64,000 nt of DNA. Origin: Magallana gigas. Its lineage: Eukaryota. The stretch spans positions 13,392,001 to 13,456,000 of the forward strand of contig NC_088857.1 of assembly GCF_963853765.1 (NCBI RefSeq). Reading direction: 5' to 3'. Within the stretch, counting starts at the first letter, position 1, and each line of letters opens with the position of its first letter. This document shows positions 33,901-64,000 of this stretch, one piece after another. The position numbers are program-made.

Positions 33901-36900
33901 ACATTGTAAGAAATAAACTAGTATACAGCATGTTTGAGATTAATATTATGGTTATAAAAATTGCAAAAACAGTCTCTAATGATATAGATTTGACCCGACG
34001 AATATACAAATTCAAAATGTTCACGTATGTTAATAACAGGTAAACCAAAAAAAAAAAACCCCCAACACTTGATATAGAAATAGAGCCCAAGAACGCTAAA
34101 ATAATCCAGCTTTGTTTTAAACTGTTTCATTGTAGTAGGGCAAGGAATTCTGCAGAAGTGTGGGAGTTCATTTCTATACAATTTGTGAACTGAGTTTCCT
34201 TTTCCATGACGTCACTAGAATCATTGGATCTTATCAGTTCACAAAATACAGCAGAAATGCAATTGCTTGATTTTTCATTCATTACTTTTCAGCCGTAGTC
34301 TTAATCAATAGCGCCAAGAGAAAAGTGCATGAGCATGATGCAAATCTTTAATCGATTTTTTCAGAACACGATCTCTAAATATTTGTGTACACAAGATAAG
34401 AACTGTTTAAAAATAATATAGTGCATACAATTAATTATGATTAACTTTTGAAGTTTTTAATAACGCTGCTAAACATACAGATTTTTGGATTATTTTTCAT
34501 ACCAGGAATTTAATTGATGTTTCTAAATTTATTAATTTTACAGACAGATTGGAATCTTGAAATAAACTACAAAATCGTTTTGAAATTAATATTTTAACAT
34601 ATGTAAGAGCAAATACCACAGAATATACACCTAGAGAAAATTTAACATTGGTTTTTTTTTTACCGGGTACATTGCATGGAACGAGTTTCTTGAATACTTA
34701 TATTTTATTTGTAGATTACAAGGTTACTATACAGGTCCCTAGACTTTCCCTGACAGAATTTACAAATGCTGTAAATAATTATAGCGATTTGACATTTTAC
34801 TTTACTTATAGCATTAAAATATCCAATCTTCGGGTATCAGGAAAGACACATTTAGCATGAAGTTCACAGTTTTGAATTCTAACAATAAAACGTAAATTAA
34901 AAATAATTTTACAACACAACCATTAGGTACAAACATAATAAAAAAAATAAGTGTTGCTTAATATTCATTTCATCGCTAAAGGATCTTAAACATATTATGA
35001 TCGATTAATTATTGTGTTATTGTGTTTTATGTAAACAACAAAGGGCAAGATAAAAAAAAATAAATACAGAATATATCGAGAGTGAAAATATATTGCGCGT
35101 GGGAGTTCTGATGTCCAATTAGTCAAGGTTCTTTACCGCTGGCCTTTGGTGAGTCCAACATGACATTTTCCATAGAGTAATTAATATTAGTCACTGTGTA
35201 TGATGTTAATTTTTCACCATTGATGTCGGCTAGGAGCTCATCTACGGATTTACTGAAACAGGAAACAATACAAACATTAATATCCGACCTTTTTTCCTTC
35301 AAAGGAGGCATATTTGTGTTGTTTTAGTATCCTATTGAATGTCAAGGTTTCAAAGAGAAAAAAACCCGCCAAAGAATGATAATATTAAGAATATTTACAA
35401 CGAGAATTTAGCGTCGAAAGTACCCTCTGATATTTGCATTTTTCACTTTCAAAGTCTAAACAAACAACACTACATGTACATTTAAAACCATAGTCTCATA
35501 AAGAAGAATTCGAGAAAATGATGAAAAATATTTTTTGGTATCGAAAGATGTTTATTTTAATCGAAACTATGGGTTTCACTCAAAACGACATATTACATGT
35601 AATTTATTTGCAGTAAGATACAGTTGAAAAGTTTAGAAACAATCAGTGGTTCTATTTTCCAATCAGAAAACACCAAATTAAGGAGTATGTCATACGATAA
35701 AACGAAAAACAATTCATAAATATATTCAAATCCAAATATCTACAAACATTTTAGTTAAAAAAAATAACATTGTTATTATTTTGTGAGAATCGATTAATAT
35801 AAAGATATCTCCACAAATGTTGTAGAGATCATTTAAATTCATCTACAGATAACAAACCTGATAAAATCCTCACGGAATTGTTGAAGAAGAGCCATAGTAT
35901 ATAGCCCGGATTCCAATGGTTCATCGGCTGATGGTGATTGCACTTTACATAAAGCAAAGGAAATGATGAAATTATCTCCCCTTGGTTCTAATAAGGTCCG
36001 AGGGGGATCTGAAAAAAGTAAACTTGAATTTATTTTAAAAATGTGTTACATAGTGGTTTATGTTATTATGTGACAAAATTAACCACGGTAAAACTCATTC
36101 GCCTATCTATTAGATTCAATTTTTTCTCTGTTCACTTTATCAGTCTGAGAATAAACCCTATCTATTTACATTTTGACGTTATGTTAAAATTCCTTAAAAT
36201 TCATTTTTTTACTAAGTGAAGTTTACATTTAATTATAAAATGTGTTCAGATTTCGGTTTATAGAATTTGAATTTATCGAATTTAATATAGAAATGGTGAC
36301 ATTATTTATAGGGTGCAATTGCACATGTACAAACTACATGTAAACCTTCTTTGTTTGAAATATCTTGAACACAATACAGAAATTGCCGATTACATTCAAA
36401 TCTACTTACGTGGCATAGATACATGTAGGTTATTTCCTCAGACCTATTAAAATTCGTTTAAATCGCACGTATTAACCCTACGTGGTTTCATAGCTCAAGG
36501 AATTCATTGCACTCACTAATGTTTTGTGGATTATTTTGAACTTATATTACGGTTAATCTTTTTATTTACCGGGAAAACTATTGATCTGTTGATACTTTTC
36601 ATGAAAAATAAAAAAAAAACCCGAGTATATGTACCGCTTTTGGTTTTGACCTTTATCACTGTTGGAGCGTACTTCCGTTTTCCATCAACCAGTGTGAAGC
36701 ACTTGACAACGTAAGATGTCGATGACCATAGACCTCCAAACTCGCATTTGAACCTGGAAGATTTTTTGTGAAACGTGGCTTTCTTCTTTATTTTGTCCCC
36801 GTCCTCTCGTTCCAGCACAACCTGGTACTGCAACGATCCGGAAAAGTCTTTTGGAACTGGCGGGTTTTGCCAGGCGAGATGAATCTCCGAGGAGTTCACT

Positions 36901-62500: not shown

Positions 62501-64000
62501 CAAAGAAAAAACAGCTGATAGTTTTAAAAGAACACTTTTACCTCCCAATGAGACTGAAGTGAATCAGGGCCACGTTTTGAACTTTTTAAAGAGTAACACT
62601 GAATATATTATACGACTTTTTGCTGGAAACTCTAGAATTCTCAACGAAGTGAAAATTAAGACACTGGCAAAACGTAAGTACCATTAAACACATATTAAGA
62701 CTTTGCATCAATGCACTGGATTTAAAACCCTATTTACACGATGTGAATTACATAATCTCTTGAACAATCTTCTGAGTTGGATATACCTCTATTGATTAGT
62801 CGGACATGAAGATGCTATAGAATAAGTATATTTACTATTTTTAAAATACAATAAGAAAACTGTCAATTTGATCTAGAGAATCTTGGTTCTATTTCTTTCC
62901 TGTCATTCTGACATAATGGATGGAATAAAAAAACTACCTTGCTATCTTCTTAATATTATTAAAACTAACCGTTTGTTTATTTATCGGAAGATCAGAGGAT
63001 TGACGTCATTTAACTTCATATACAGATTAGAATATTTCAATTTTCATGTGGTTCGATCAAACTTAACATATCCTTAATTATCTTTATTTAATAATTTTGT
63101 GATGATTTTCTCATTAGATTTGAAATTGCAAATTTGAATGTTTCTCGTAATGCCTTTTTAAGATCAACCCAAAGACCTTAAAGCAAAACACATAACACCT
63201 TTTGAGATTGAGTTAACATGGGCAACCCCAAGCGTATATCTTCGCGGAAGCTACAGGTACCACGTGTTTTATCAGATGAAGAACTCCACAGAGAATAGTG
63301 TTGTTACGCTCGTTGAACAACACACATTGACTGACTTAATACCAGATGTTGTTTACACTATATGGGTAACAGCTGAAAAGGACAAATTTATGGGAGATCC
63401 GTCGGACTCAATAGAGTGCCACACACCAAGATGTGGTAAGTTACAACGATGGTTTACTGCCTTTTAAGTTTCTAATTTGTTTAAAAATTTCAGTCGAAGT
63501 GAAGATTACTAAAAAGAGAGTGAAGATAATTGTTTTGTTGTTGGTATATTTGATAATTTTTTATAGATTCTCGAGGTCTTGAAAAATTGCTTATGTTTCT
63601 TCTATGCAAGGTTAATTAATTATAGAACTAAAAGCAAATTAATTTTTTTGAGAATTCAATTAAAGGTATACATCGAATTTCTCTAACGAATAATTGCAAT
63701 CAGGTCCCCAGAATTTACAAGTAGATGCCCATGAACGGAGTATACGTGTGTATTGGGACGAGGCTGTTGTTCCAGCCGAGACAGAAAGCTTAAGTTATAG
63801 AGCTCGTCTTCAAAATGATAATATCCGTCCAATAGTTGGAGAGGTGCTTCCTACGCCCGATGCCAAGTACAATTACGCCTGTTATTTTCGGGATCTATGG
63901 ACGGACACGCAATACACTCTAGTCATAACCACAGTGATTGACGAGGGAGACTGGGACCCACCCACCGAAGTACCAATCAAAACGAGGCGAGGTCAGGCTA

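What the first reader, a model, noticed from the sequence alone, without database searches (positions are those of the whole stretch)
35123..64000. Head-to-head paralogue pair with conserved exon sizes but different FN3 copy number
Seen: A (-) and B (+) diverge from a shared region of under 6.2 kb. The last three FN3 exons are 285/270/288 nt in A and 285/273/288 nt in B, and share motifs (FGGLWSSTSY vs FRDLWTDTQY). A has two extra FN3 units after the first post-p20 domain. Inference: an old inverted duplication was followed by gain or loss of FN3 exons, so arm length varies. Prediction: the next exon of B beyond 64000 encodes a p10-like domain.
Basis: partly seen in the sequence, partly recalled or inferred. 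Interest (0 to 1): 0.65.

Follow-up and report, generated by a model that had tools for sequence, protein, structure and literature searches.

The report
Divergent oyster FN3 pseudo-caspase gene pair
Two neighbouring oyster genes that point away from each other are old copies of one gene for a caspase-like protein that has lost its cutting residues and whose two halves are separated by four or six fibronectin-type domains; both genes are already annotated, but misnamed and unstudied.

Summary
The window is oyster DNA (Magallana/Crassostrea gigas or a very close relative), not human.

- **Gene A** is on the minus strand, 35123 to about 58082. It is RefSeq LOC105343466, also named 'tenascin-R'.
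- **Gene B** is on the plus strand, from 58659 past 64000. RefSeq names it 'titin'.
- The two genes are transcribed divergently.
- Both encode FN3 – p20-like – (FN3)n – p10-like, with n = 6 in A and n = 4 in B.
- The exon sizes 285/270/288 and 285/273/288 nt and both quoted motifs are confirmed.
- A tree of single FN3 units pairs A0/B0, A1/B1, A4/B2, A5/B3 and A6/B4. A2 and A3 have no partner.

Full-length database proteins identical to B's exons continue for 88 residues. A profile of these C-termini has caspase small subunits as its best matches among solved structures.

New points:
- The catalytic His and Cys are replaced in both genes (A: Phe/Ile; B: Tyr/Gln).
- A third paralogue type in Saccostrea keeps both residues.
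- A's 5' exons reach 57477, probably 58082. The shared region is therefore at most 1.2 kb, probably 0.58 kb.

Whether FN3 exons were gained or lost is unresolved. The function (a non-catalytic cytosolic scaffold) is inferred. I found no paper describing this architecture.

The parts
35123..35252 (-). Gene A, last exon (p10-like, second part) with stop codon at 35123-35125
   Evidence: P0003 residues 956-998 map here. Acceptor at 35252 in the phase that fits the donor at 35858.
35858..36008 (-). Gene A, p10-like exon, first part (starts DPPRTLLEPRGDNF...)
   Evidence: P0003 residues 906-955; splice sites. Homologous to the B/C C-termini by hhalign: 93.4%, E 2.5e-7.
36635..36922 (-). Gene A FN3 unit 6, 288 nt, phase 1-1; holds FGGLWSSTSY; partner of B4
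   Evidence: group A6/B4/C4, support 98/99.
37156..37425 (-). Gene A FN3 unit 5, 270 nt; partner of B3
   Evidence: group support 87/82.
37570..37854 (-). Gene A FN3 unit 4, 285 nt; partner of B2
   Evidence: group support 95/100.
38563..38616 (-). Gene A short linker exon (about 18 residues) between FN3 units 3 and 4; boundaries within about 2 nt
   Evidence: P0003 residues 607-624.
39984..40232 (-). Gene A FN3 unit 3, 249 nt; extra unit with no partner in B
   Evidence: No Pfam hit at E <= 0.1. Predicted as a beta unit at low confidence.
40402..40692 (-). Gene A FN3 unit 2, 291 nt; extra unit with no partner in B
40789..41082 (-). Gene A FN3 unit 1, 294 nt; partner of B1
   Evidence: group support 92/78.
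41373..41666 (-). Gene A p20-like exon b, 294 nt; His position is Phe (GFG), Cys position is Ile (VDIIH)
   Evidence: Pfam Peptidase_C14, 22.6 bits. Alignment to caspase-8 p18 and to other caspase domains.
41901..41963 (-). Gene A p20-like exon a (LCVIIVND...), boundaries within about 2 nt
   Evidence: P0003 residues 209-229.
42059..42133 (-). Gene A linker exon, skipped in RefSeq isoform P0025 (973 aa)
42303..42602 (-). Gene A FN3 unit 0 (before p20), 300 nt; partner of B0
42695..42817 (-). Gene A exon DSLEKEEGG..., boundaries approximate
   Evidence: P0003 residues 42-82.
48606..48659 (-). Gene A alternative first coding exon (MYFSSKPSVMDLETTREK), used by isoforms P0022, P0023 and P0026
52479..52520 (-).
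53083..53127 (-). Gene A 5' exon (SFIGHAGSLPDLYK)
57442..57477 (-). Gene A 5' exon (ARKFKRIELVPE), preceded by an acceptor
58079..58082 (-). Inferred end of gene A's first coding exon (ATG plus one base, then GT). It is the only ATGG|GT site on the minus strand in the 57481-58760 stretch scanned.
   Evidence: Inference from P0003 starting with M-A while the 57477 exon starts at the second base of the Ala codon. Not verified by transcript DNA.
58083..58658 (.). Shared upstream region between the two start codons: 576 bp if the inferred A exon is right, otherwise 57478-58658
   Evidence: No test of promoter activity was possible.
58659..58847 (+). Gene B exon 1 (ATG at 58659; acidic; holds a 30-nt tandem repeat at 58696-58809)
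58945..58989 (+). Gene B exon 2, boundaries within about 2 nt
59414..59698 (+). Gene B FN3 unit 0, 285 nt
59820..61073 (+). Five short gene B exons (about 59820-59849, 59977-60018, 60460-60522, 60671-60721, 61035-61073) for a helix-rich linker
   Evidence: Helices at residues 194-223 and 230-237 in the model.
61281..61352 (+). Gene B p20-like exon a, 72 nt
61516..61830 (+). Gene B p20-like exon b, 315 nt; His position is Tyr (SYG), Cys position is Gln (IDVQP)
   Evidence: Pfam Peptidase_C14, 41.3 bits. Alignments.
61956..62252 (+). Gene B FN3 unit 1, 297 nt
62389..62673 (+). Gene B FN3 unit 2, 285 nt
63163..63435 (+). Gene B FN3 unit 3, 273 nt
63704..63991 (+). Gene B FN3 unit 4, 288 nt; holds FRDLWTDTQY. 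The donor AG|GT is at 63991, and the p10-like exons lie beyond the window.
   Evidence: P0001 residues 762-849 lie outside the window.

Best explanation
**Shown**
- The region holds two divergently transcribed paralogous oyster genes.
- Each encodes a protein with no signal peptide and no membrane segment. Its layout is a disordered N-terminus, one FN3 domain, a caspase large-subunit-like (p20) half, an array of FN3 domains (six in A, four in B), and a caspase small-subunit-like (p10) half.
- Each FN3 domain is one exon in phase 1-1. Adding or removing such an exon keeps the reading frame.
- The duplication is old: there is no DNA similarity, protein identity is about 27%, and orthologues exist in other oyster genera.
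- Five FN3 positions correspond one to one. A carries two further units, A2 and A3, which are present in all three A orthologues examined.
- The catalytic His and Cys of caspases are replaced in both genes, and by different residues in different species. A third paralogue type (C) in Saccostrea keeps both.

**Inferred**
- The p20-like and p10-like halves pack into one caspase-type fold. The FN3 array loops out at the place where ordinary caspases have the inter-subunit linker.
- A and B cannot cut after Asp the way caspases do. They act as non-catalytic cytosolic scaffolds or regulators. The dead caspase fold would serve as a pairing or binding module, in the manner of the pseudo-caspase c-FLIP. 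The FN3 arms would serve as spacers or binding surfaces of two different lengths.
- The start codons lie 1.2 kb apart or less, probably 0.58 kb. That suggests a shared bidirectional promoter for one of A's two promoters.
For: **Gene models**
- Each exon was searched on its own and hit full-length proteins at 100% identity: P0001 (849 aa) and P0003 (998 aa).
- Both sit in clusters that carry RefSeq records of Magallana gigas and M. angulata.
- Exon maps are; splice sites and phases.

**Domains**
- Pfam on the whole proteins gives fn3 at 130.6 and 142.6 bits. Peptidase_C14 scores 54.3 and 37.7 bits (cut-off 21.4), covering profile positions 1-128/143 of 233, which is the p20 part only.

**Dyad**
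- In HMMER alignments to solved caspases, B's SYG lies opposite SHG, and B's FFFID lies opposite FFIQ just before the Cys.
- A's GFG lies opposite SHG.
- A 17-row alignment with other caspase domains shows A = F and I/S/I, B = Y and Q/H, C = H and C.

**p10 half**
- A profile of six C-termini has caspase small subunits as its best PDB hits: 6ppm_B at E 3e-4 and 6pdq_B at E 5.4e-3. The alignment starts at residues 4-5 of the small subunit.
- A profile of B and C alone gives 6pdq_B at E 1.6e-3; 2 of its 3 hits at E <= 1 are caspase small subunits.
- A's C-terminus against the B/C profile by hhalign: 93.4% probability, E 2.5e-7, 58 columns.

**Packing of the halves**
- Complex prediction on P0001 245-385 with 762-849 scored 0.84, against 0.02 for the best of 3 controls.
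- That mark was reached by 51 of 78 solved complexes and 2 of 108 mismatched pairs. On eukaryotes it was reached by 39 of 65 solved pairs with no like older complex, and by 2 of 126 unrelated pairs.
- The runs agree in at least 76% of contacts, and the partner's pLDDT is at least 73.
- Strand 365-372 pairs with 774-780.
- Caspase p20/p10 complexes are solved, so this pass may come from memory. It shows likeness, not that this copy binds.

**Other structural and sequence evidence**
- Secondary structure of the full-length B model is beta-alpha-beta-alpha-beta...alpha-beta for residues 251-371, and beta-alpha-alpha-beta for 774-844.
- No hydrophobic stretch: the maximum KD19 is 0.90 in B and 1.21 in A. 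The N-termini are charged.
- The best solved-structure matches of the FN3 part are intracellular titin domains, at E 7e-11.
- Conservation: A's p20-like part is 81% identical to C. virginica and 72% to S. echinata. That is as conserved as its FN3 units.
Against: - **A's p10 half is weakly supported on its own.** A profile of the three A-type C-termini found no caspase among its 15 PDB hits at E <= 10; the best hit was NUF2 at E 0.02. The AlphaFold2 model of A is below pLDDT 50 at 907-919, 921-941 and 954-998. A's p10-likeness therefore rests on its homology to B and C.
- **The models are weak overall.** Mean pLDDT is 67 for B and 57 for A, and pTM is 0.35 and 0.32. The alignments were shallow (10 and 8 rows).
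- **Contacts in the full-length model could not be seen.** Intramolecular packing of the halves around the FN3 loop is untested in the whole protein.
- **The complex test did not use my alignment**, and it resembles solved complexes.
- **No expression, promoter, binding or activity data exist here.**
- **A's first coding exon at 58079-58082 is inferred**, and A also has an internal alternative first exon at 48606-48659. Shared regulation would therefore be partial at most.
- **Type C keeps His and Cys**, so the family as a whole is not necessarily inactive.
- **The S1-pocket arginines could not be placed reliably** in the alignments.
Confidence: 0.7

Rival explanations
1. A and B are still active peptidases that use other catalytic residues or another nucleophile.
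For: - The caspase-like part is conserved between oyster genera: 72-81% identity for A.
- Paralogue type C keeps His and Cys.
- The Asp at the position of the Q of QACxG is invariant in all 10 aligned proteins (D371).
Against: - Both dyad positions are replaced.
- The residue at the Cys position is not even conserved among orthologues: Ile, Ser, Ile in A, and Gln or His in B.
- A Phe or Tyr at the His position cannot act as a general base. This last point is established enzymology, not a test made here.
Confidence: 0.07
2. The C-terminal tail is not a caspase small subunit. The proteins are FN3 arrays that picked up only a p20 fragment.
For: - Pfam Peptidase_C14 covers only profile positions 1-128/143 of 233.
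- The A-only profile finds no caspase, 0 of 15 hits.
- A's tail is modelled poorly.
Against: - Caspase small subunits are the top PDB hits of the six-sequence profile and of the B/C profile.
- The match starts at the very beginning of the small subunit.
- The predicted secondary structure of B's tail is beta-alpha-alpha-beta.
- The complex test passed, with canonical beta4-beta5 pairing.
- The motif LEPxxxNF is invariant in A, B and C.
Confidence: 0.1
3. The difference in FN3 number comes from loss of two exons in the B (or B+C) lineage, not from gain in A.
For: - A2 and A3 do not group with any other A unit. They sit on long branches of their own in the unresolved part of the tree, as old units would.
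- They are present in all three A orthologues.
- B1 scores almost as well against A2 (77) as against A1 (83).
Against: - Both B and C have four units.
- In 2 of the 5 unit groups the tree puts A with C rather than B with C. With that topology, loss would need two events.
- There is no outgroup with this architecture. Apart from the A, B and C types and their fragments, none of the 150 listed representative proteins matched the p10 queries.
Confidence: 0.4
4. The head-to-head position is an accident of an inversion, with no shared regulation.
For: - A has an alternative internal first exon about 10 kb away.
- No promoter or expression evidence was obtainable.
Against: - The start codons of B and the long A isoform lie 1181 bp apart or less, probably 576 bp.
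- A and B orthologue models in S. echinata were seen on contigs of the same length (8,460,678). That fits a retained neighbourhood, but I could not read that DNA.
Confidence: 0.35

Closest known systems
Caspases (MEROPS family C14A; Pfam Peptidase_C14)
   Same: - Homologous p20-like half, above the Pfam cut-off.
- p10-like half found by profile.
- Predicted beta4-beta5 pairing of the halves.
   Different: - The His-Cys dyad is replaced in A and B.
- Four or six FN3 domains (about 380-580 residues) stand where the short cleavable inter-subunit linker should be.
- One more FN3 domain stands before the p20 half, in place of a CARD or DED prodomain.
c-FLIP (CFLAR), the pseudo-caspase that pairs with procaspase-8
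   Same: A caspase fold without the catalytic Cys, thought to act by pairing rather than cutting. c-FLIP is among B's solved-structure hits (3h11_A, E 0.0017).
   Different: - No death-effector domains were found by Pfam.
- c-FLIP's caspase-like domain is continuous.
- Pairing with an active caspase is untested here.
[quoted passage not shown]
   Same: Molluscan caspase-family proteins in which the stretch between the large and small subunit is enlarged.
   Different: Those are active enzymes whose linker carries a regulatory phosphorylation site. Here the linker position holds folded FN3 domains and the dyad is gone.
Mytilus coruscus caspase with an FN3 domain in its prodomain (PMC10967218; passages read)
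   Same: An FN3 domain N-terminal to a caspase domain in a bivalve, as with FN3 unit 0 here.
   Different: That paper required an intact CASc domain and mentions no FN3 array between the subunits. Whether it is an orthologue could not be checked, because supplements are closed.
Titin, tenascin-R, fibronectin, collagen XII (the names given by automatic annotation)
   Same: Arrays of FN3 domains. The best solved-structure matches of the FN3 part are titin domains.
   Different: Pfam found no kinase, EGF, fibrinogen, collagen or von Willebrand A domains, and there is no signal peptide. The names reflect FN3 content only.

Membership tests
Caspase family (Peptidase_C14 / C14A) | Large-subunit (p20) homology | tested here: met
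   Pfam PF00656 scores 54.3 bits for B and 37.7 bits for A, against a cut-off of 21.4. Solved caspases match at E 2.3e-6 for B's exon and 0.049 for A's exon.
Caspase family (Peptidase_C14 / C14A) | Small-subunit (p10) homology completing the fold | tested here: met
   Met for B and C: the profile hits caspase small subunits at E 3e-4 (six sequences) and 1.6e-3 (B and C only). The complex test scored 0.84 against 0.02, possibly from memory of solved caspases. For A alone it is not met directly (0 of 15 hits); A is linked through hhalign at E 2.5e-7.
Caspase family (Peptidase_C14 / C14A) | Catalytic His (SHG) and Cys (QACxG) | tested here: not met
   A has Phe and Ile (Ser in C. virginica). B has Tyr and Gln (His in P0046). 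Type C keeps His and Cys. A and B are therefore homologues of caspases, not active caspases.
Caspase family (Peptidase_C14 / C14A) | Arg residues of the S1 pocket that bind the substrate Asp | tested here: inconclusive
   In the 17-row alignment an Arg of A and B (Lys in C) lies opposite the Arg of the R-x-G stretch, and the five residues after it are missing. Loop alignment there, and at the p10 position, is unreliable.
c-FLIP-type pseudo-caspases | Tandem death-effector domains before the dead caspase domain | tested here: not met
   No DED hit in Pfam at E <= 0.01 on P0001, P0003, P0004 or P0005.
c-FLIP-type pseudo-caspases | Heterodimer with an active initiator caspase | not tested
Titin / tenascin / fibronectin (annotation names) | Family-specific domains besides FN3 (kinase and Ig for titin; EGF and fibrinogen globe plus secretion signal for tenascin) | tested here: not met
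   Pfam lists only FN3-type families and Peptidase_C14. There is no hydrophobic N-terminus.
Head-to-head gene pair with a bidirectional promoter | Divergent transcription starts less than about 1 kb apart | tested here: inconclusive
   The coding starts are 1181 bp apart or less, 576 bp if the inferred ATG exon is right. Transcription starts are unknown.
Head-to-head gene pair with a bidirectional promoter | Correlated expression, with promoter activity in both directions | not testable with these tools
   No expression data or reporter assay is available here.

The most novel reading that the evidence does not exclude
The oyster family is a natural series of 'split' caspase folds. An FN3 array of four or six domains is inserted exactly at the inter-subunit linker.
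- One member (type C) may still be catalytic.
- Two members (A and B) lost the dyad by different substitutions.
- A and B may be made together from one bidirectional promoter and pair through their dead caspase folds. The result would be a heterodimeric cytosolic scaffold with arms of unequal length.
- The FN3 units look most like those of titin. Pulling on such a loop could open or close the p20/p10 fold, which would make it a tension-sensitive switch.
Probability: 0.1. Interest if true: 0.75.

Novelty: new variant of a known kind. Interest (0 to 1): 0.45.

Why it matters
Caspases are normally switched on by cutting a short linker between their two subunits. Here whole folded domains occupy that linker, and the cutting residues are gone in two of three paralogue types.

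If the halves really reassemble, this would show three things:
- The caspase fold tolerates a 380-580-residue domain insertion at the linker.
- Bivalves, already known for expanded and shuffled caspase families, have turned the fold into a non-enzymatic module.
- Surveys that require an intact caspase domain, or that trust automatic names such as 'titin' and 'tenascin-R', would miss such genes.

The gene pair itself is an ordinary, tidy case of old duplication with exon-wise change in repeat number.

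Tried and rejected
- **Foldseek of the full-length B model against the PDB.** All 50 listed matches were FN3- or Ig-type arrays, none a caspase. This says nothing about the caspase halves.
- **ESM Atlas search with B residues 245-385.** The three best clusters are 'Caspase domain-containing protein', but at 0.87-0.86, below the 0.9 level. It is a lead only and adds nothing to Pfam.
- **A-only p10 profile against the PDB.** No caspase among the 15 hits.
- **AlphaFold2 model of A.** Too weak at the C-terminus to judge.
- **Search for more paralogue exons left of 35.1 kb.** tblastn with P0001, P0003 and P0007 at E <= 1e-3 gave 0 hits there out of 46 in all.
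- **Pfam on 10 long open frames elsewhere in the window.** Only one weak sub-threshold hit (DUF7775).
- **Nucleotide-level inverted repeat between the genes.** None, apart from one 21-nt AT-rich match.
- **Wider family search.**
  - The word-indexed search with P0001 returned only 3 proteins.
  - The exhaustive search gave 390 proteins at E <= 0.001, of which 150 were listed.
  - Together with the proteins fetched earlier this made 183 held. Only the A, B and C types and their fragments matched the p10 queries.
  - Four ordinary caspases (P0105, P0170, P0174, P0175) matched the p20 queries.
  - The 240 unlisted hits were not seen.
- **'Membrane or secreted FN3 protein' was considered and rejected.** There is no signal peptide or hydrophobic segment.
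- **Claims about the S1-pocket arginines were considered and dropped,** because the loop alignments are unreliable.

Full report
**What the window is.** The window has about 33% G+C and one N run at 1983-2131, far from the finding, which I left alone. Single exons of both genes hit full-length proteins at 100% identity. These proteins belong to clusters that hold RefSeq records of Magallana (Crassostrea) gigas and M. angulata. Window-encoded residues differ from the M. gigas and M. angulata proteins of gene A at 7 of 992 positions each. The species is therefore M. gigas or a very close relative. It is oyster, not human. I searched the spliced genes exon by exon and did not join exons into a model of my own. 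After the exon searches I worked with whole database proteins.

**Checking the observation.** Stop-to-stop frames, Pfam and splice-site scans show FN3 exons and caspase-like exons on the minus strand (A) and the plus strand (B).
- The last three FN3 exons of A are 37854-37570 (285 nt), 37425-37156 (270 nt) and 36922-36635 (288 nt).
- The last three of B are 62389-62673 (285 nt), 63163-63435 (273 nt) and 63704-63991 (288 nt).
- All are in phase 1-1 and agree with the protein maps.
- Both quoted motifs are there.
- tblastx of the B region against the A region gave six collinear matches over FN3-0, p20 (two pieces), FN3-1, B2/A4 and B4/A6, with a grouped E of 2.8e-18. The rest was microsatellite noise.

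**Gene models.** P0003 (998 aa) maps to 17 minus-strand exons from 57477 down to the stop at 35123-35125. P0001 (849 aa) maps to 14 plus-strand exons from the ATG at 58659 to the donor at 63991. Its residues 762-849 fall outside the window.
There are exons at 52479-52520, 53083-53127 and 57442-57477.
- The last of these starts at the second base of the Ala codon behind an acceptor. The Met must therefore come from a further exon.
- The only ATGG|GT site on the minus strand in the 57481-58760 stretch scanned is at 58079-58082. This exon is inferred.
- The two start codons are thus 1181 bp apart at most, and probably 576 bp.
- A also has an alternative first exon at 48606-48659 and an optional exon at 42059-42133.

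**Architecture.** Both proteins read N-terminal tail, FN3, linker, p20-like, FN3 array, p10-like.
- Pfam finds Peptidase_C14 above its cut-off, but only over the p20 part of the profile.
- For the p10 part I built a profile of six C-termini (A type from three species, B, and C type from two species). Its best matches among all solved structures are caspase small subunits: 6ppm_B at E 3e-4 and 6pdq_B at E 5.4e-3. The alignment begins at the start of the subunit.
- B and C alone give 6pdq_B at E 1.6e-3.
- A alone gives no caspase among 15 hits. A's tail does align to the B/C profile, with 93.4% probability and E 2.5e-7.
- A complex prediction of B's p20 part with its p10 part scored 0.84, against 0.02 for the best of three controls. 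The mark was reached by 51 of 78 solved complexes and 2 of 108 mismatched pairs. The runs share at least 76% of contacts, and the partner's pLDDT is at least 73. Strand 365-372 lies against 774-780.
- Because caspase p20/p10 complexes are solved, that pass shows likeness. It is not proof that this copy binds.
- The AlphaFold2 model of B (pLDDT 67, pTM 0.35) has caspase-like order of strands and helices in both halves. The model of A (pLDDT 57) is too weak at the tail.

**Active site.** Alignments to solved caspases and to four ordinary caspases from the exhaustive search put Phe (A) and Tyr (B) at the catalytic His. At the catalytic Cys they put Ile, Ser or Ile (A, three species) and Gln or His (B, two sources). 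The third paralogue type, C (Saccostrea cucullata XP_062602458.1 and the second half of an S. echinata model), keeps His and Cys. A and B are therefore pseudo-caspases. I make no claim about the substrate-pocket arginines, because the loops align poorly.

**Evolution of the FN3 units.**
- Pairwise scores against shuffles and a maximum-likelihood tree of 41 units from A (three species), B (two) and C (two) give five groups: A0/B0/C0, A1/B1/C1, A4/B2/C2, A5/B3/C3 and A6/B4/C4. Their support is 87/95, 92/78, 95/100, 87/82 and 98/99.
- A2 and A3 stand alone on long branches and are present in all three A orthologues.
- Direction cannot be settled. The groups disagree on whether B or A is nearer to C, and I found no outgroup with this layout.
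- No nucleotide similarity remains between the genes.

**Location and likely role.** No hydrophobic segment or signal peptide is present. The FN3 part resembles titin's intracellular FN3 domains best. A's p20-like part is as conserved between genera as its FN3 units, at 72-81% identity, which argues for a retained, non-catalytic role. My best reading is a cytosolic scaffold or regulator built on a dead caspase fold with an FN3 loop. This last step is inference.

**What is in print.**
- Searches for caspase together with fibronectin type III, FN3, pseudo-caspase, Peptidase_C14, inter-subunit linker or domain insertion found no description of this layout. Searches for the six accession or locus names found none either.
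- I read passages only, not whole texts, of four papers.
- PMC7836458 has no mention of fibronectin or FN3. It notes bivalve caspases that lack the His and Cys.
- PMC10967218 mentions two M. coruscus caspases with an FN3 or a PB1 domain in the prodomain.
- PMC11463336 has no mention of FN3.
- Supplements were closed, so gene lists there may include these loci.

**Not checked.**
- The DNA beyond 64000.
- Any eukaryotic genome other than this window.
- Expression.
- The closed metagenome and viral collections.
- The 240 unlisted hits.
- Pfam family PF28033.1, which the database lists for these proteins but which was not among the hits of the Pfam copy I could scan.

Noticed in passing
58696-58809: A 30-nt tandem repeat (3.8 copies) lies inside gene B's first exon and encodes EKDPNEQES-like units. 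Database proteins of the same cluster are 849, 839 and 829 aa long and differ by 10 or 20 residues at this repeat. This looks like copy-number polymorphism.
   Followed up: partly
48606-48659 and 42059-42133: Gene A has an alternative internal first coding exon about 10 kb from the distal one. It also has a 75-nt linker exon just before p20 that RefSeq isoform P0025 skips.
   Followed up: partly
outside the window (proteins P0006, P0007, P0058, P0071, P0086): A third paralogue type (C) keeps the catalytic His and Cys. The S. echinata model P0006 ('collagen alpha-1(XII) chain-like', 1216 aa) joins a B-type FN3 part that lacks both caspase halves to a complete C-type protein. It is probably a fused gene model, and it hints that C lies next to B on the same strand.
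   Followed up: partly
42159-42234; 56465-56535; about 30850-30915: There are perfect microsatellites: (AT)38 in an intron of gene A, (AG)35 in A's 5' intron, and a similar (GA)n run left of the genes. They produced most of the tblastx noise.
   Followed up: no
44643-45041: A 168-bp tandem repeat (2.4 copies, 76% matches) lies inside gene A's 9.7-kb intron, together with other short tandem arrays at 43046-43113 and 47412-47542.
   Followed up: no
outside the window (P0089, P0130): Two unnamed genomic ORF fragments read on past B's last residues (...PMF) with a Trp. The likely cause is that the gene caller read a TGA stop as Trp under another code. This is my guess and could not be checked.
   Followed up: no
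1-35000: Ten long open frames were scanned: eight here, plus two in gene A's long intron and a third overlapping it. They gave no Pfam family, except a sub-threshold DUF7775 match at 25499-25933 on the minus strand (19.1 bits, cut-off 25). No FN3 or caspase-like exons lie left of 35.1 kb.
   Followed up: partly
proteins P0001, P0003-P0006: The database's precomputed domain lists name PF28033.1 for these proteins. It was not among the hits when I scanned them with the Pfam copy available, so I do not know which part it covers.
   Followed up: no
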